Below are positions 590 to 7,358 of a stretch of DNA of 7,358 bases, one piece after another. The notes below the pieces were generated by a model. The model did no database searches, was not told the origin of the DNA, and saw only the letters and a list, made by a program, of their open reading frames with translations. The stretch is from Naegleria gruberi (lineage: Eukaryota), in NCBI GenBank assembly GCA_000004985.1, contig GG739144.1, one strand, 5' to 3'. The position numbers and the translations under genes were made by a program. The first letter of the stretch is position 1. Each line of letters starts with the position of its first letter.

Positions 590-836
590 ATGTCCAAATA
601 CACACGAGAAGACTTTGACTTTCTCAAACAACTCGGCAAGGGAGCCTACAGTGAAGTTTTCCTAACCAAATACAAGAAATCCGGCACACACTACGCCACA
701 AAAGTCATCAAGAAGGATTTCGTCATTAAGGAGAAGAAAATCAATACGGTCAAGATGGAGAAGGAAGTTCTCAACATGTTGAGTCATCCGAATATAATTT
801 CATTGTTTTGTACCTATCAGGATAAGGATCATTTGT
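590..836 (+). CDS. PDK1/PKH-family serine/threonine protein kinase, first coding exon (partial gene; kinase subdomains I-IV: G-loop, catalytic Lys, alphaC)
   Basis: Translation MSKYTREDFDFLKQLGKGAYSEVFLTKYKKSGTHYATKVIKKDFVIKEKKINTVKMEKEVLNMLSHPNIISLFCTYQDKDHL. It contains the glycine-rich loop LGKGAYSEV, the VAIK-type Lys motif YATKVIKK, the PDK1/Pkh hallmark IIKEKK(V/I)xYV, HPNI and T(F/Y)QD. Fungal Pkh kinases at this position have D(E/K)xxLYF. Here the frame reads DKDHL and then switches to non-kinase residues (CRLLFFSKAL, stop at 866-868). The break coincides with gtaggt at 837-842, so I place a phase-1 splice donor after nt 836, with the T at 836 starting the expected Tyr codon. The rest of the kinase must lie in the N-masked block. 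Confidence 0.75.
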
Positions 837-1194: not shown

Positions 1195-4100
1195 NNNNNN
1201 NNNNNNNNNNNNNNNNNNNNNNNNNNNNNNNNNNNNNNNNNNNNNNNNNNNNNNNNNNNNNNNNNNNNNNNNNNNNNNNNNNNNNNNNNNNNNNNNNNNN
1301 NNNNNNNNNNNNNNNNNNNNNNNNNNNNNNNNNNNNNNNNNNNNNNNNNNNNNNNNNNNNNNNNNNNNNNNNNNNNNNNNNNNNNNNNNNNNNNNNNNNN
1401 NNNNNNNNNNNNNNNNNNNNNNNNNNNNNNNNNNNNNNNNNNNNNNNNNNNNNNNNNNNNNNNNNNNNNNNNNNNNNNNNNNNNNNNNNNNNNNNNNNNN
1501 NNNNNNNNNNNNNNNNNNNNNNNNNNNNNNNNNNNNNNNNNNNNNNNNNNNNNNNNNNNNNNNNNNNNNNNNNNNNNNNNNNNNNNNNNNNNNNNNNNNN
1601 NNNNNNNNNNNNNNNNNNNNNNNNNNNNNNNNNNNNNNNNNNNNNNNNNNNNNNNNNNNNNNNNNNNNNNNNNNNNNNNNNNNNNNNNNNNNNNNNNNNN
1701 NNNNNNNNNNNNNNNNNNNNNNNNNNNNNNNNNNNNNNNNNNNNNNNNNNNNNNNNNNNNNNNNNNNNNNNNNNNNNNNNNNNNNNNNNNNNNNNNNNNN
1801 NNNNNNNNNNNNNNNNNNNNNNNNNNNNNNNNNNNNNNNNNNNNNNNNNNNNNNNNNNNNNNNNNNNNNNNNNNNNNNNNNNNNNNNNNNNNNNNNNNNN
1901 NNNNNNNNNNNNNNNNNNNNNNNNNNNNNNNNNNNNNNNNNNNNNNNNNNNNNNNNNNNNNNNNNNNNNNNNNNNNNNNNNNNNNNNNNNNNNNNNNNNN
2001 NNNNNNNNNNNNNNNNNNNNNNNNNNNNNNNNNNNNNNNNNNNNNNNNNNNNNNNNNNNNNNNNNNNNNNNNNNNNNNNNNNNNNNNNNNNNNNNNNNNN
2101 NNNNNNNNNNNNNNNNNNNNNNNNNNNNNNNNNNNNNNNNNNNNNNNNNNNNNNNNNNNNNNNNNNNNNNNNNNNNNNNNNNNNNNNNNNNNNNNNNNNN
2201 NNNNNNNNNNNNNNNNNNNNNNNNNNNNNNNNNNNNNNNNNNNNNNNNNNNNNNNNNNNNNNNNNNNNNNNNNNNNNNNNNNNNNNNNNNNNNNNNNNNN
2301 NNNNNNNNNNNNNNNNNNNNNNNNNNNNNNNNNNNNNNNNNNNNNNNNNNNNNNNNNNNNNNNNNNNNNNNNNNNNNNNNNNNNNNNNNNNNNNNNNNNN
2401 NNNNNNNNNNNNNNNNNNNNNNNNNNNNNNNNNNNNNNNNNNNNNNNNNNNNNNNNNNNNNNNNNNNNNNNNNNNNNNNNNNNNNNNNNNNNNNNNNNNN
2501 NNNNNNNNNNNNNNNNNNNNNNNNNNNNNNNNNNNNNNNNNNNNNNNNNNNNNNNNNNNNNNNNNNNNNNNNNNNNNNNNNNNNNNNNNNNNNNNNNNNN
2601 NNNNNNNNNNNNNNNNNNNNNNNNNNNNNNNNNNNNNNNNNNNNNNNNNNNNNNNNNNNNNNNNNNNNNNNNNNNNNNNNNNNNNNNNNNNNNNNNNNNN
2701 NNNNNNNNNNNNNNNNNNNNNNNNNNNNNNNNNNNNNNNNNNNNNNNNNNNNNNNNNNNNNNNNNNNNNNNNNNNNNNNNNNNNNNNNNNNNNNNNNNNN
2801 NNNNNNNNNNNNNNNNNNNNNNNNNNNNNNNNNNNNNNNNNNNNNNNNNNNNNNNNNNNNNNNNNNNNNNNNNNNNNNNNNNNNNNNNNNNNNNNNNNNN
2901 NNNNNNNNNNNNNNNNNNNNNNNNNNNNNNNNNNNNNNNNNNNNNNNNNNNNNNNNNNNNNNNNNNNNNNNNNNNNNNNNNNNNNNNNNNNNNNNNNNNN
3001 NNNNNNNNNNNNNNNNNNNNNNNNNNNNNNNNNNNNNNNNNNNNNNNNNNNNNNNNNNNNNNNNNNNNNNNNNNNNNNNNNNNNNNNNNNNNNNNNNNNN
3101 NNNNNNNNNNNNNNNNNNNNNNNNNNNNNNNNNNNNNNNNNNNNNNNNNNNNNNNNNNNNNNNNNNNNNNNNNNNNNNNNNNNNNNNNNNNNNNNNNNNN
3201 NNNNNNNNNNNNNNNNNNNNNNNNNNNNNNNNNNNNNNNNNNNNNNNNNNNNNNNNNNNNNNNNNNNNNNNNNNNNNNNNNNNNNNNNNNNNNNNNNNNN
3301 NNNNNNNNNNNNNNNNNNNNNNNNNNNNNNNNNNNNNNNNNNNNNNNNNNNNNNNNNNNNNNNNNNNNNNNNNNNNNNNNNNNNNNNNNNNNNNNNNNNN
3401 NNNNNNNNNNNNNNNNNNNNNNNNNNNNNNNNNNNNNNNNNNNNNNNNNNNNNNNNNNNNNNNNNNNNNNNNNNNNNNNNNNNNNNNNNNNNNNNNNNNN
3501 NNNNNNNNNNNNNNNNNNNNNNNNNNNNNNNNNNNNNNNNNNNNNNNNNNNNNNNNNNNNNNNNNNNNNNNNNNNNNNNNNNNNNNNNNNNNNNNNNNNN
3601 NNNNNNNNNNNNNNNNNNNNNNNNNNNNNNNNNNNNNNNNNNNNNNNNNNNNNNNNNNNNNNNNNNNNNNNNNNNNNNNNNNNNNNNNNNNNNNNNNNNN
3701 NNNNNNNNNNNNNNNNNNNNNNNNNNNNNNNNNNNNNNNNNNNNNNNNNNNNNNNNNNNNNNNNNNNNNNNNNNNNNNNNNNNNNNNNNNNNNNNNNNNN
3801 NNNNNNNNNNNNNNNNNNNNNNNNNNNNNNNNNNNNNNNNNNNNNNNNNNNNNNNNNNNNNNNNNNNNNNNNNNNNNNNNNNNNNNNNNNNNNNNNNNNN
3901 NNNNNNNNNNNNNNNNNNNNNNNNNNNNNNNNNNNNNNNNNNNNNNNNNNNNNNNNNNNNNNNNNNNNNNNNNNNNNNNNNNNNNNNNNNNNNNNNNNNN
4001 NNNNNNNNNNNNNNNNNNNNNNNNNNNNNNNNNNNNNNNNNNNNNNNNNNNNNNNNNNNNNNNNNNNNNNNNNNNNNNNNNNNNNNNNNNNNNNNNNNNN

Positions 4101-6507
4101 NNNNNNNNNNNNNNNNNNNNNNNNNNNNNNNNNNNNNNNNNNNNNNNNNNNNNNNNNNNNNNNNNNNNNNNNNNNNNNNNNNNNNNNNNNNNNNNNNNNN
4201 NNNNNNNNNNNNNNNNNNNNNNNNNNNNNNNNNNNNNNNNNNNNNNNNNNNNNNNNNNNNNNNNNNNNNNNNNNNNNNNNNNNNNNNNNNNNNNNNNNNN
4301 NNNNNNNNNNNNNNNNNNNNNNNNNNNNNNNNNNNNNNNNNNNNNNNNNNNNNNNNNNNNNNNNNNNNNNNNNNNNNNNNNNNNNNNNNNNNNNNNNNNN
4401 NNNNNNNNNNNNNNNNNNNNNNNNNNNNNNNNNNNNNNNNNNNNNNNNNNNNNNNNNNNNNNNNNNNNNNNNNNNNNNNNNNNNNNNNNNNNNNNNNNNN
4501 NNNNNNNNNNNNNNNNNNNNNNNNNNNNNNNNNNNNNNNNNNNNNNNNNNNNNNNNNNNNNNNNNNNNNNNNNNNNNNNNNNNNNNNNNNNNNNNNNNNN
4601 NNNNNNNNNNNNNNNNNNNNNNNNNNNNNNNNNNNNNNNNNNNNNNNNNNNNNNNNNNNNNNNNNNNNNNNNNNNNNNNNNNNNNNNNNNNNNNNNNNNN
4701 NNNNNNNNNNNNNNNNNNNNNNNNNNNNNNNNNNNNNNNNNNNNNNNNNNNNNNNNNNNNNNNNNNNNNNNNNNNNNNNNNNNNNNNNNNNNNNNNNNNN
4801 NNNNNNNNNNNNNNNNNNNNNNNNNNNNNNNNNNNNNNNNNNNNNNNNNNNNNNNNNNNNNNNNNNNNNNNNNNNNNNNNNNNNNNNNNNNNNNNNNNNN
4901 NNNNNNNNNNNNNNNNNNNNNNNNNNNNNNNNNNNNNNNNNNNNNNNNNNNNNNNNNNNNNNNNNNNNNNNNNNNNNNNNNNNNNNNNNNNNNNNNNNNN
5001 NNNNNNNNNNNNNNNNNNNNNNNNNNNNNNNNNNNNNNNNNNNNNNNNNNNNNNNNNNNNNNNNNNNNNNNNNNNNNNNNNNNNNNNNNNNNNNNNNNNN
5101 NNNNNNNNNNNNNNNNNNNNNNNNNNNNNNNNNNNNNNNNNNNNNNNNNNNNNNNNNNNNNNNNNNNNNNNNNNNNNNNNNNNNNNNNNNNNNNNNNNNN
5201 NNNNNNNNNNNNNNNNNNNNNNNNNNNNNNNNNNNNNNNNNNNNNNNNNNNNNNNNNNNNNNNNNNNNNNNNNNNNNNNNNNNNNNNNNNNNNNNNNNNN
5301 NNNNNNNNNNNNNNNNNNNNNNNNNNNNNNNNNNNNNNNNNNNNNNNNNNNNNNNNNNNNNNNNNNNNNNNNNNNNNNNNNNNNNNNNNNNNNNNNNNNN
5401 NNNNNNNNNNNNNNNNNNNNNNNNNNNNNNNNNNNNNNNNNNNNNNNNNNNNNNNNNNNNNNNNNNNNNNNNNNNNNNNNNNNNNNNNNNNNNNNNNNNN
5501 NNNNNNNNNNNNNNNNNNNNNNNNNNNNNNNNNNNNNNNNNNNNNNNNNNNNNNNNNNNNNNNNNNNNNNNNNNNNNNNNNNNNNNNNNNNNNNNNNNNN
5601 NNNNNNNNNNNNNNNNNNNNNNNNNNNNNNNNNNNNNNNNNNNNNNNNNNNNNNNNNNNNNNNNNNNNNNNNNNNNNNNNNNNNNNNNNNNNNNNNNNNN
5701 NNNNNNNNNNNNNNNNNNNNNNNNNNNNNNNNNNNNNNNNNNNNNNNNNNNNNNNNNNNNNNNNNNNNNNNNNNNNNNNNNNNNNNNNNNNNNNNNNNNN
5801 NNNNNNNNNNNNNNNNNNNNNNNNNNNNNNNNNNNNNNNNNNNNNNNNNNNNNNNNNNNNNNNNNNNNNNNNNNNNNNNNNNNNNNNNNNNNNNNNNNNN
5901 NNNNNNNNNNNNNNNNNNNNNNNNNNNNNNNNNNNNNNNNNNNNNNNNNNNNNNNNNNNNNNNNNNNNNNNNNNNNNNNNNNNNNNNNNNNNNNNNNNNN
6001 NNNNNNNNNNNNNNNNNNNNNNNNNNNNNNNNNNNNNNNNNNNNNNNNNNNNNNNNNNNNNNNNNNNNNNNNNNNNNNNNNNNNNNNNNNNNNNNNNNNN
6101 NNNNNNNNNNNNNNNNNNNNNNNNNNNNNNNNNNNNNNNNNNNNNNNNNNNNNNNNNNNNNNNNNNNNNNNNNNNNNNNNNNNNNNNNNNNNNNNNNNNN
6201 NNNNNNNNNNNNNNNNNNNNNNNNNNNNNNNNNNNNNNNNNNNNNNNNNNNNNNNNNNNNNNNNNNNNNNNNNNNNNNNNNNNNNNNNNNNNNNNNNNNN
6301 NNNNNNNNNNNNNNNNNNNNNNNNNNNNNNNNNNNNNNNNNNNNNNNNNNNNNNNNNNNNNNNNNNNNNNNNNNNNNNNNNNNNNNNNNNNNNNNNNNNN
6401 NNNNNNNNNNNNNNNNNNNNNNNNNNNNNNNNNNNNNNNNNNNNNNNNNNNNNNNNNNNNNNNNNNNNNNNNNNNNNNNNNNNNNNNNNNNNNNNNNNNN
6501 NNNNNNN
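1195..6507. other. N-masked block / assembly gap (5,313 N)
   Basis: Uninterrupted run of n from 1195 to 6507. Its length is a multiple of 3, which is why the ORF caller produced a 1793-aa poly-X 'protein'. Confidence 0.99.
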
Positions 6508-6550
6508 AATTTTGATAATGTAATATTAAAGATATTGATAATTGGGTATA

Positions 6551-6572
6551 GGGAAACGGAATTTCCTAATTA
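6551..6572. repeat. Copy A of a short GGGAAACGGAATTTCC...AATTA motif family (imperfect palindrome GGAAA-n5-TTTCC)
   Basis: gggaaacggaatttcctaatta shares the GGG(A/T)AACGGAA core with 6668-6680 and 6712-6724, and the GGAA(A/T)TTCC(C/T)AAATTA half with 6829-6848. Confidence 0.45.
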
Positions 6573-6664
6573 GGAGTCATCACAATAAAATTTATTCATT
6601 AATGATGTTCACAAACTTTGAATTAACACATTACATGATGAATTACATTTTCAAACAATTTACT

Positions 6665-6733
6665 ATCGGGTAACGGAAATTAATACATCCATAACATTAA
6701 ATATTAACCATCGGGTAACGGATTTTAATACAT
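6665..6733. repeat. 24-bp direct repeat pair (atcgggtaacggaaattaatacat at 6665-6688; atcgggtaacggattttaatacat at 6710-6733; 22/24 identical, 45-bp period)
   Basis: Read directly from the sequence. The two copies differ only by aa versus tt in the middle. The intervening 21 bp are unrelated. Confidence 0.8.
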
Positions 6734-6816
6734 GTACAGTATGTTTATAATTGGTCGACGCACAGAAATTTAAATAAAAAGAATTAACAATAATAAAAGC
6801 AAAATGCTCACAACAT

Positions 6817-6848
6817 TGGAGAACGGGAAATGAAATTCCCAAATTAAA
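6817..6848. repeat. Copy D of the motif family: AACGGGAAATGAAATTCCCAAATTAAATT (imperfect palindrome GGGAA-n6-TTCCC)
   Basis: ggagaacgggaaatgaaattcccaaattaaatt; the outer GGGAA/TTCCC arms are inverted repeats. Confidence 0.45.
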
Positions 6849-6890
6849 TTGAGAAACAACACAATCACAATAATTCATACTATCAAAATG

Positions 6891-6948
6891 AATTGAACCC
6901 GGGTCACGGCGATGGCAACGCCGTATTCTACCACTAAACCATCGACGC
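6891..6948 (-). tRNA. tRNA-Gly(GCC), 3'-truncated: nt 1 through the T-loop (58 nt) present, 3' T-stem strand and 3' acceptor strand absent; probable pseudogene/fragment
   Basis: Minus strand reads GCGTCGA TG GTTT AGTGGTAG AATA CGGCG TTGCCAT CGCCG TGAC CCGGG TTCAATT. This gives a 7-nt acceptor 5' strand, a D arm with the fungal GGTTTAGTGGTA pattern, an anticodon stem CGGCG/CGCCG, loop TTGCCAT with anticodon GCC, a T-stem 5' strand CCGGG and T-loop TTCAATT. The next bases are CATTTTGATA instead of the required CCCGG+TCGACGC(A), so the cloverleaf cannot close. It is very similar to fungal tRNA-Gly(GCC) as recalled from memory. Confidence 0.7.
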
Positions 6949-7064
6949 TTCACATTTAATAAGTAATTATTCTTGATTGATAACTAAAGTTATTTAACAA
7001 TTGAGTTACAAAATCAATTTCAAAATCGACAACAGTCACAAACAAAGTTAAAAAAATCAGAACA

Positions 7065-7358
7065 ATGATCACCACCAACAATTCCTCCACCAAAAAACAC
7101 TCAAATTGTCCCACCTCTTTCTTTCAAGTTGATGATTTCCACAAGAAACATTCAACTTTTAATACCTATCCCTATGATCCCTCTCAATTCCGAAATCAAT
7201 ATGATGATTGTCTAGAAAAGGCTGATTATAAGAAAATTAAAAGGCTCCGAATACTTGTTCAGAGACAAACAATTGATATTTGTAGGGATCAATACTATTT
7301 GTACAATTTTAAAAATCATAGAAATTCTAAAAATCAAATTGATGATGATGAAATGTAG
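7065..7358 (+). CDS. Hypothetical small protein (97 aa), N-terminal Ser/Thr/Asn-rich, no recognisable domain
   Basis: ATG at 7065 in an A-rich context (acaATGa). Open for 97 codons to TAG at 7356-7358, which is exactly the window end. Codon choice (ACC, TCC, AAC, CAC) resembles the kinase exon. No homology recognised. It could also be the first exon of a longer gene. Confidence 0.45.
   Translation: MITTNNSSTKKHSNCPTSFFQVDDFHKKHSTFNTYPYDPSQFRNQYDDCLEKADYKKIKRLRILVQRQTIDICRDQYYLYNFKNHRNSKNQIDDDEM

What the first reader, a model, noticed from the sequence alone, without database searches (positions are those of the whole stretch)
6881..6950. Cleanly 3'-truncated tRNA-Gly(GCC), ending right after the T-loop and abutting TTTT
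Nucleotides 1-60 of a canonical fungal tRNA-Gly(GCC) are intact, with no base substitutions that break the stems. The last 12-13 nt (T-stem 3' strand CCCGG and acceptor 3' strand TCGACGC plus discriminator) are replaced by unrelated sequence beginning CATTTTGATA. A sharp breakpoint, rather than diffuse decay, argues for a recent rearrangement or an insertion/deletion junction at that exact position. The immediately following T4 on the tRNA strand could still terminate Pol III, so a tRNA-derived 3'-truncated transcript is conceivable. Sharp tRNA truncations are typical footprints of integrative-element or recombination junctions, and of partial tRNA duplications near repeated DNA.
Basis: seen in the sequence. 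Interest (0 to 1): 0.55.

Follow-up and report, generated by a model that had tools for sequence, protein, structure and literature searches.

The report
Broken tRNA-Gly gene relic in Naegleria
This is a dead copy of a glycine tRNA gene in the amoeba Naegleria gruberi (not a fungus), cut off sharply in its last arm, with 10 of the 12 missing bases sitting flipped over 127 bases away; it is an ordinary gene relic in a genome that holds hundreds of tRNA genes and relics.

Summary
On the minus strand, 6948→6890 is identical over 59 bases (standard tRNA positions 1-61) to an intact tRNA-Gly(GCC) found on a metagenome contig (L003). That copy continues CCGGTCGACGCA; the window continues ATTTTGATAGTATG. 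The break lies between 6890 and 6889. The canonical cloverleaf scores -27.1 kcal/mol (21/21 pairs) for the intact copy and +3.2 (14/21) for the window copy. Rfam gives 66.9 and 21.2 bits (threshold 29). ARAGORN's full-length call is a false positive.

The organism is Naegleria gruberi: the flanking kinase exon equals the first 82 residues of the N. gruberi PDK1 protein. The lost end is also not simply gone. Its last 10 bases, GGTCGACGCA, lie on the opposite strand at 6753-6762.

The best explanation is a local break-and-rejoin rearrangement, most simply a 137-bp inversion with loss of 2 bases. The rebuilt gene would lack a Pol III terminator, so the event may be more complex. Rivals are an in-place patch or partial gene conversion, an insertion whose far end is hidden in the 5,313-N run, and assembly error. 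No evidence supports an integrative element, a SINE or a split tRNA gene. N. gruberi has about 924 tDNAs with fast turnover. Interest is low.

The parts
6890..6948 (-). 5' 59 bases of tRNA-Gly(GCC): acceptor 5' strand, D arm, anticodon arm (anticodon GCC), variable region, T-stem 5' strand, T loop and the first base of the T-stem 3' strand (standard positions 1-61). The A box and 10 of 11 B-box positions are intact.
   Evidence: Identical over 59 of 59 bases to the intact gene L003:207-265. ARAGORN anticodon call. Rfam alignment. Box inspection.
6875..6889 (-). Sequence that takes the place of the tRNA 3' end (ATTTTGATAGTATGA on the tRNA strand). It includes the T4 run at 6888-6885. The breakpoint is 6890|6889.
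   Evidence: The alignment to L003 loses identity here. T-runs listed. It can be aligned to CCGGTCGACGCA only with 2 indels, 4 C-to-T changes and 2 transversions (read from the sequence and the alignment).
6753..6762 (+). Inverted fragment GGTCGACGCA. This is the last 10 bases of the tRNA-Gly gene (sequence positions 62-71: 2 bases of the T stem, the acceptor 3' strand and the discriminator), on the strand opposite to the gene.
   Evidence: Single exact match in the window, with 0 of 200 shuffles matching. The composition-based expectation is 2.4e-4 per window. The empirical background is about 0.005 per window for ten-mers drawn from the missing 12 bases. Together with 6890-6948 it rebuilds the intact gene minus 'CC'.
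6763..6889 (.). 127-bp segment between the two tRNA pieces. Under the simple model, this segment plus the 10-mer (6753-6889) is the inverted block.
   Evidence: Un-inverting 6753-6889 joins the pieces. Against this model: read in the un-inverted sense the segment has no run of 4 or more T. In its present sense it is T-rich on the tRNA strand (68 T to 27 A) and weakly collinear with the L003 trailer.
6749..6752 (.). AATT palindrome directly abutting the inverted 10-mer. It is a possible microhomology with the AATT of the T loop.
   Evidence: Read from the sequence. The same tetramer lies at 6891-6894 in the T loop, one base from the other junction.
6891..6894 (.). AATT of the T loop (TTCAATT), next to the breakpoint.
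   Evidence: Read from the sequence.
6965..6980 (-). Upstream block TCAATCAAGAATAATT at about -32 to -17. It is shared with the intact L003 gene (TCAA-CAAGAGTAATT). It suggests that the 5' side of the gene is in its native, gene-like context.
   Evidence: In the local alignment, 11 of 2000 shuffles reach the score. In the anchored test, 24 of 2000 shuffles and 11 of 788 control windows reach it.

Best explanation
This is a non-functional relic of a nuclear tRNA-Gly(GCC) gene of Naegleria gruberi. A local DNA break-and-rejoin event cut the gene inside the 3' strand of the T stem. The first 59 bases stayed in place with their upstream region. The last 10 bases ended up 127 bp downstream on the opposite strand. 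The simplest version is one 137-bp inversion (6753-6889), with one breakpoint in the T arm and the other next to an AATT, and with loss of 2 bases (CC) at a junction. Shown: the truncation, the exact breakpoint, the inverted fragment, and the fact that the two pieces are complementary parts of one gene. Inferred: that a single event produced both pieces, and that it was an inversion and not a more complex template-switch repair. The product cannot fold as a tRNA, so it cannot be charged or used in translation. It keeps its internal Pol III promoter boxes and is followed by T4, so a short tRNA-derived transcript is possible but untested.
For: Identity is 59 of 59 to an intact gene and then stops abruptly. 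The cloverleaf is lost and the Rfam score falls from 66.9 to 21.2 bits. GGTCGACGCA occurs once, inverted, 127 bp away; 0 of 200 shuffles match, the composition expectation is 2.4e-4 and the empirical expectation about 0.005. The two pieces cover positions 1-59 and 62-71 with no overlap, as one break would give, and un-inverting 6753-6889 rebuilds the intact gene minus CC. AATT sits at or next to both junctions. The upstream block is shared with the intact copy. No tRNA exists in the 22-kb orthologous locus of N. lovaniensis. PMC2888827 reports about 924 tDNAs in N. gruberi with fast positional turnover, so relics are expected.
Against: The gene rebuilt by a simple inversion would have an A-rich trailer with no run of 4 or more T within 127 bp. 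Both real tRNA genes on L003 have T4-T5 within 15 bp. The present downstream sequence is weakly collinear with the L003 trailer; 104-181 of 2000 shuffles and 19 of 772 control windows reach its score. That would mean the segment is already in its native orientation. The 10-mer is bounded by non-tRNA sequence on both sides, which fits a short templated or captured fragment better than one arm of a clean inversion. Only one intact comparator was available, and it comes from an unidentified metagenomic organism. No reads or second assembly of this locus could be examined.
Confidence: 0.45

Rival explanations
1. In-place patch. The downstream flank is native and was never inverted, and only the last 12 bases were changed. 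Either an old, decayed pseudogene had its first 59 bases overwritten by gene conversion from an intact tRNA-Gly paralogue, with the conversion tract ending in the T loop, or a short repair patch replaced the 3' end. Under this model the inverted 10-mer is coincidental or a separate small templated insertion.
For: The 13 bases after TTCAATT align to CCCGGTCGACGCA with 7 identities and 4 C-to-T changes, which is why all 7 acceptor pairs survive as G.U or Watson-Crick pairs in the Rfam alignment. The following sequence, AATTATTGTGATTGTGTTGTTTCTCAATTTAA, is collinear with the L003 trailer AATTAATGTTTTTGTTTTTCAAAGTTTTAA; 104 of 2000 shuffles at 60 nt and 19 of 772 control windows reach the score. 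The 5' flank block is shared. N. gruberi has hundreds of tDNAs available as conversion donors.
Against: It leaves the inverted 10-mer of exactly the missing bases unexplained (expectation 2e-4 to 5e-3). The 3' flank similarity is not significant in a free local alignment, where 596-728 of 2000 shuffles reach the score. A conversion tract ending with no homology on its 3' side is unusual. The flank similarity may only reflect shared Pol III flank motifs.
Confidence: 0.2
2. Insertion junction. Foreign or mobile DNA was inserted into the T arm. The rest of the tRNA lies at the other end of the insert, possibly inside the 5,313-N run that starts 382 bp away.
For: The breakpoint is sharp. The 9-mer ATTTTGATA abutting the break recurs inverted at 6509-6517, directly at the edge of the N run, and AATT occurs at 6508-6511 and 6891-6894. 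The flank beyond 6508 cannot be read.
Against: 6508-6894 shows no foldback or TIR-element behaviour (z -0.5), and many equally good AT-rich inverted repeats lie nearby. The 9-mer's expectation is 0.15 per window. No target-site duplication, no recombinase or transposase ORF in the readable DNA, and no second copy of the junction or of the flank in 40 kb of Naegleria-clade DNA or in the collections searched. The N run must hold the remaining ~315 residues of the kinase and probably the counterparts of three further genes seen in N. lovaniensis, which leaves little room for an element. The model does not explain the inverted 10-mer inside the supposed insert.
Confidence: 0.1
3. Assembly or cloning artefact. 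The true locus has an intact tRNA-Gly gene or a different arrangement.
For: tRNA genes are multicopy (about 924 tDNAs). The locus is 382 bp from a long N run. No reads or second assembly could be examined.
Against: A mis-join through a repeat would give a complete tRNA with the wrong flank, not a break inside it together with a 10-bp inverted piece. The N run is at least partly masking of existing sequence and not a proven gap, because the annotated N. gruberi kinase needs exons inside it. The 137-bp structure is shorter than a typical Sanger read (general knowledge, not checked for this assembly).
Confidence: 0.1
4. Functional oddity. Either this is a split tRNA gene whose two pieces are transcribed from opposite strands and joined, or it is a tRNA-derived Pol III unit (SINE head, TFIIIC-bound boundary element) kept by selection.
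For: The pieces are complementary, 1-59 and 62-71. The RNA trailer of the 5' piece and the leader of the 10-mer can form a 24-pair duplex of -16.8 kcal/mol, reached by 15 of 500 shuffles. The A box and most of the B box are kept, T4 follows the break, and the first 59 bases carry no substitution.
Against: Two bases (CC) of the T stem are encoded nowhere, so no joining site rebuilds a 5-bp T stem. The duplex is offset by 10 and 3 bases from the pieces, has 7 G.U pairs, and is matched by 4.3% of arbitrary sequence pairs from the same DNA. A 10-base piece has no Pol III promoter. No other copies were found. There are no target-site duplications.
Confidence: 0.05

Closest known systems
tRNA pseudogenes and tDNA relics of eukaryotic nuclear genomes (as surveyed in PMC2888827)
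   Same: It is recognisably derived from a functional tRNA gene, has lost the cloverleaf, lies in an intergenic region, and is not conserved at the orthologous locus of a sister species. N. gruberi is reported to have about 924 tDNAs with rapid turnover.
   Different: Most described pseudogenes show scattered substitutions. This one has a perfect 5' 59 bases, a single sharp break, and its 3' end preserved as an inverted 10-mer nearby.
Micro-inversions and short inverted template-switch events made by double-strand-break repair or replication template switching
   Same: Two junctions lie about 137 bp apart. The short palindromic microhomology AATT sits at or near both. A few bases were lost at a junction, and a piece reappears as its reverse complement.
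   Different: The ancestral state is not observed. The rebuilt ancestor lacks a Pol III terminator, so a clean two-break inversion may not be the whole story.
Prokaryotic integrative elements that target the 3' part of tRNA genes (attB in the T arm or acceptor)
   Same: The break falls in the T arm, the classical target region, and a fragment of the tRNA 3' end lies nearby.
   Different: In those systems the tRNA gene stays intact, because the element brings a replacement 3' end. The displaced fragment is a direct repeat at the far end of a multi-kb element that encodes an integrase. Here the gene is destroyed, the fragment is inverted and only 127 bp away, and no integrase is visible. The host is a eukaryote.
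Split and permuted tRNA genes (Nanoarchaeum equitans split genes; Cyanidioschyzon merolae permuted genes)
   Same: The tRNA sequence lies in two separated, non-overlapping pieces, and there is some complementarity between the sequences next to the pieces.
   Different: The known cases encode every nucleotide of the mature tRNA, and their flanking helices abut the pieces. Permuted genes have both parts on one strand. Here 2 bases are missing, the pieces lie on opposite strands, and the duplex is offset and statistically weak. The descriptions of the known systems are from my own knowledge.

Membership tests
Functional tRNA gene (Rfam RF00005) | Score at or above the curated gathering threshold of the tRNA covariance model | tested here: not met
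   21.2 bits against a gathering score of 29, E 0.97. The intact L003 copy scores 66.9 bits.
Functional tRNA gene (Rfam RF00005) | Closed acceptor stem and 5-bp T stem in the cloverleaf | tested here: not met
   7 of 21 canonical pairs are broken, 4 in the acceptor stem and 3 in the T stem. The cloverleaf energy is +3.2 against -27.1 kcal/mol. The unconstrained fold has neither stem. Only a G.U-rich bulged pseudo-acceptor exists.
Functional tRNA gene (Rfam RF00005) | Internal Pol III promoter (A and B boxes) and a downstream T-run terminator | tested here: inconclusive
   The A-box region is intact. The B box reads GGTTCAATTCA against GGTTCAATTCC in the intact copy. A T4 run starts 2 nt after the last shared base. 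Transcription was not testable.
tRNA pseudogene / tDNA relic | Clear derivation from a functional tRNA gene combined with loss of tRNA structure | tested here: met
   59 of 59 bases identical to an intact tRNA-Gly(GCC), with the 3' 12 bases absent.
Integrative element inserted in a tRNA gene (att site) | Direct repeat of the tRNA 3' segment at the far end of an element that carries a recombinase gene; tRNA gene left intact | tested here: not met
   The only copy of the 3' segment is inverted and 127 bp away. The gene is not intact. No ORF with recombinase potential occurs in the readable DNA. The masked 5.3 kb could not be examined.
tRNA-derived SINE | Multiple dispersed copies sharing the tRNA head plus an unrelated body, flanked by target-site duplications | tested here: inconclusive
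   The junction was not found in viral contigs. The metagenome scan returned one contig, with the intact form. The prokaryote-genome and viral scans with the tRNA core found nothing. There is no similarity to 40 kb of Naegleria-clade DNA. No target-site duplication is visible. The N. gruberi genome itself could not be searched.
Split / permuted tRNA gene | All nucleotides of the mature tRNA are encoded, and flanking sequences form a helix that abuts both pieces | tested here: not met
   CC of the T stem is encoded in neither piece. The duplex is offset by 10 and 3 nt, has 7 G.U among 24 pairs, and is matched by 4.3% of natural sequence pairs.
LTR-retrotransposon primer-binding site | About 10-18 nt complementary to the 3' end of a tRNA including CCA, directly after an LTR that ends in CA | tested here: not met
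   The minus strand reads CTGTGCGTCGACC where TGGTGCGTCGACC is expected. The preceding 127 bp is not bounded by TG...CA. No gag or pol ORF follows in the readable 245 bp.

The most novel reading that the evidence does not exclude
The tRNA-Gly(GCC) copies of Naegleria spread as a unit together with about 30 bp of upstream and about 40 bp of downstream sequence. This truncated copy, with its A and B boxes intact and a T4 run right after the break, would be a still-transcribed member that yields a roughly 65-nt tRNA-derived RNA or acts as a TFIIIC-bound element in a divergent promoter region. Such a SINE-like amplification could help explain why N. gruberi has about 924 tDNAs.
Probability: 0.07. 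Interest if true: 0.45.

Novelty: new member of a known kind. Interest (0 to 1): 0.2.

Why it matters
It matters little beyond annotation. The locus should be labelled a tRNA-Gly(GCC) pseudogene or fragment, not a tRNA gene as ARAGORN calls it. It is a tidy example of how a tRNA gene can be killed by a small local rearrangement in which the lost end survives nearby as an inverted scrap. It also fits the picture of fast tDNA turnover in a protist with an unusually large tDNA complement. If the shared flanks between independent tRNA-Gly copies hold up genome-wide, they would bear on how Naegleria reached about 924 tDNAs. That question needs the whole genome, not this window.

Tried and rejected
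1. Exact look-ups of the window's ORF products (7065-7358 and 590-868) in the public contig index found nothing on record. The N. gruberi protein P0009 could not be looked up either, so no second assembly of this locus was obtained.

2. A homology search with the 97-aa ORF found no relatives.

3. Synteny. The relative contigs L001 and L002, and the N. lovaniensis locus L004, share only the kinase exon (about 81% nt identity). They hold no tRNA and nothing similar to 6508-7358. The ancestral state could therefore not be read from a sister species.

4. Collection scans. The metagenome scan with the tRNA core found one contig, L003, with an intact gene. The same core found nothing in the prokaryote-genome scan or the viral scan. 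The junction pattern found nothing in the viral scan.

5. A second, decayed, convergent tRNA-Gly gene upstream of the 10-mer was rejected: 702 of 1000 shuffles score as well.

6. The repeated ATCGGGTAACGGA motif as a tRNA-derived repeat was rejected, because no local alignment scores above shuffles.

7. A TIR or foldback element spanning 6509-6889 is unsupported: z is -0.5 and many equal inverted repeats exist.

8. A split tRNA gene was rejected on the missing CC and on the offset, weak duplex.

9. A PBS-like reading of the 10-mer was rejected.

10. My hand-built pseudo-acceptor structure string was mis-indexed, and its energy (+8.5) is not used.

11. Literature searches for Naegleria tRNA-targeting mobile elements returned nothing specific.

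Full report
**What is in the window.** Only 2,045 of the 7,358 bases are readable; 1195-6507 is a run of 5,313 N. The finding lies in the right-hand readable piece (6508-7358), 382 bases from the N run.

The minus strand from 6948 down reads GCGTCGATGGTTTAGTGGTAGAATACGGCGTTGCCATCGCCGTGACCCGGGTTCAATTC and then ATTTTGATAGTATGAATTATTG. A scan of metagenome contigs with the anticodon-arm-to-T-loop core returned one contig, L003. It carries an intact tRNA-Gly(GCC) at 207-277, 87 bases downstream of a tRNA-Ile(AAT).

- The two copies are identical for 59 bases, and the last shared base is window 6890.
- L003 then continues CCGGTCGACGCA and a trailer ATTAATGTTTTTGTTTTTC.
- The canonical cloverleaf scores -27.1 kcal/mol with 21 of 21 pairs on the intact copy, and +3.2 kcal/mol with 7 of 21 pairs broken on the window copy.
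- The unconstrained fold of the window copy closes neither an acceptor stem nor a T arm.
- Rfam's tRNA model gives 66.9 bits to the intact copy and 21.2 bits, below the threshold of 29, to the window copy.
- ARAGORN nevertheless reports a full-length tRNA-Gly at 6878-6949. The Rfam alignment shows why. The bases UUGAUaGU after the break can pair with GCGUCGA through three G.U pairs and a bulge. There is no T stem, so this is a false positive.

**The organism is not a fungus.** The left readable piece holds the first exon of a PDK1-type kinase.

- Its closest named relatives are in Naegleria lovaniensis, N. gruberi and Willaertia magna.
- The window's exon translation equals the first 82 residues of the protein annotated as PDK1 of N. 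gruberi, P0009. The window is therefore N. gruberi nuclear DNA.
- P0009 has 398 residues, so about 315 of them must be encoded inside the N run. The N run is therefore at least partly masking of sequence that exists, not proof of an assembly gap.
- In the orthologous N. lovaniensis locus (L004) the kinase is followed by three minus-strand genes and then an intergenic region. That layout would fit under the N run.
- L004 has no tRNA in 22 kb and nothing similar to 6508-7358.
- This matches a published survey, which reports about 924 tDNAs in N. gruberi and turnover of tDNA positions at rates like those of unconstrained sequence (PMC2888827).

**The new element.** The last 10 bases of the gene, GGTCGACGCA, occur once in the window, at 6753-6762 on the plus strand. 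That is inverted relative to the gene and 127 bases beyond the break.

- By base composition this 10-mer is expected 2.4e-4 times in the readable sequence.
- An empirical check is more cautious. Any of the 124 tRNA-Gly-derived 10-mers occurs twice in 40.7 kb of Naegleria-clade DNA. That gives about 0.005 per window for the six 10-mers drawn from the missing 12 bases.
- The two pieces cover positions 1-59 and 62-71 without overlap.
- Un-inverting 6753-6889 rebuilds the intact gene exactly, apart from two lost C's.
- AATT, a palindrome, abuts the 10-mer at 6749-6752. It also sits in the T loop at 6891-6894, one base from the other junction.
- This is the pattern of a small inversion joined through microhomology.

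**Why I do not claim a clean inversion with high confidence.** The rebuilt gene would be followed by CAGAAATTTAAATAAAAAG..., with no run of four T's in 127 bases. Both tRNA genes on L003 have T4-T5 within 15 bases of their ends.

In its present orientation the downstream sequence is T-rich on the tRNA strand, with 68 T to 27 A. It can be laid along the L003 trailer: AATTATTGT.. against AATTAATGT.., TTGTTTCTCAA against TTGTTTTTCAA, and TTTAA in both. This collinearity is only weakly supported. In the anchored alignment, 104-181 of 2000 shuffles and 19 of 772 control windows reach the score. In a free local alignment it is not significant.

The upstream block TCAATCAAGAATAATT (6980->6965) matches the intact copy somewhat better; 11 of 2000 shuffles reach the score locally, and 24 of 2000 shuffles and 11 of 788 control windows reach it when anchored. 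This suggests at least the 5' side is in a native, gene-like context.

The 13 bases after the T loop can also be read as a heavily C-to-T-mutated 3' end. So a rival exists in which the flank is native and only the end was changed, for example an old pseudogene whose first 59 bases were refreshed by gene conversion. That rival leaves the inverted 10-mer to chance. I weigh the local break-and-rejoin model at 0.45 and the in-place patch at 0.2.

**Other rivals.**

- *Insertion into the T arm with its far end hidden in the masked DNA.* The 9-mer ATTTTGATA next to the break recurs inverted at 6509-6517, right at the edge of the N run. However, its expectation is 0.15 per window, the region has no foldback character (z -0.5), and equally good AT-rich inverted repeats abound.
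- *A decayed convergent second gene upstream of the 10-mer.* Not supported.
- *A split tRNA gene.* The RNA after the 5' piece and the RNA before the 10-mer can form a 24-pair duplex of -16.8 kcal/mol, reached by 15 of 500 shuffles. But the duplex is offset from both pieces, a third of its pairs are G.U, and 4.3% of arbitrary sequence pairs from this DNA do as well. No joining site supplies the missing CC of the T stem.
- *A primer-binding-site reading of the 10-mer.* It fails on the CCA complement and on the lack of LTR ends.
- *An integrative element of the prokaryotic kind.* Not supported. The gene is destroyed, not restored, the fragment is inverted and close by, and no recombinase ORF is visible.
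- *Assembly error.* It cannot be excluded without reads. A mis-join through a repeat, though, would not break the repeat internally and leave a 10-base inverted piece.

**Residual activity.** The A box, 10 of 11 B-box positions and a T4 run directly after the break are present. Nothing here tests it.

**Verdict.** This is a real, sharply truncated tRNA-Gly(GCC) gene relic in Naegleria gruberi. It was most likely made by a small local rearrangement that left the lost 3' end as an inverted 10-bp scrap. It is an ordinary kind of object in a genome rich in tDNAs. The useful corrections are the organism, the exact breakpoint (6890|6889), the inverted fragment, and the warning that ARAGORN calls this relic a gene.

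Noticed in passing
window 1195-6507: A run of 5,313 N makes up 72% of the window. The annotated N. gruberi kinase (P0009, 398 aa) needs about 315 residues encoded inside it, so at least part of the run masks existing sequence and is not a sequencing gap. By comparison with N. lovaniensis it probably also hides three minus-strand genes.
   Followed up: partly
window 6658-6688, 6703-6733, weaker 6541-6571: Direct repeats ATCGGGTAACGGA(A/T)(A/T)TTAATACAT. The core contains TAACGG and CGGGTAA, which resemble Myb-type and Reb1-type binding sites (from memory). They may be promoter elements of the gene hidden under the N run. They are not detectably derived from the tRNA.
   Followed up: partly
window 6821-6840 (minus strand): Hairpin GGGAATTTCATTTCCC followed by GTTC. 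TTCATTTCCCGTTC matches tRNA positions 52-65 at 12 of 14 bases, like a degenerate T arm or extra B box about 55 bases downstream of the break. 11 of 500 shuffles reach the score before correction for 8 regions tested, so it may be chance.
   Followed up: partly
window 6720-6749 and 6852-6879: An imperfect direct repeat of about 28 bp (17 identities plus 7 transitions over 24 aligned positions). Each copy lies just left of one of the two tRNA pieces. It was found as RNA trailer/leader complementarity. Significance is weak (p about 0.03-0.04).
   Followed up: yes
window 7065-7358 (+): A 97-codon ORF ends exactly at the window end. It has no homologue among 5.8 billion proteins and is unrelated to the ORF at the corresponding place in N. 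lovaniensis. It may be an orphan gene or not a gene at all.
   Followed up: partly
window 590-836 and 837-1194: Kinase exon 1 ends in phase 1 before GTAGGT. The intron that follows is at least 358 bases long and very AT-rich, with TTTAATATT-type and ATGATG repeats. It is about twice as long as the gap between the first two kinase coding segments (presumably the first intron) in the relative contig L002.
   Followed up: no
L003 1-277: tRNA-Ile(AAT) and tRNA-Gly(GCC) lie 87 bases apart on the same strand. Both upstream regions contain ATTAAGGCAA and an AGTAAT motif. This may be a shared upstream Pol III element in this lineage.
   Followed up: no
window 6509-6517 vs 6881-6889; 6508-6511 vs 6891-6894: A perfect 9-bp inverted repeat (ATTTTGATA / TATCAAAAT) has one arm at the tRNA break and the other at the very edge of the N run, and AATT sits next to both. 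The position is striking, but it is statistically weak and cannot be tested because the flank is masked.
   Followed up: partly
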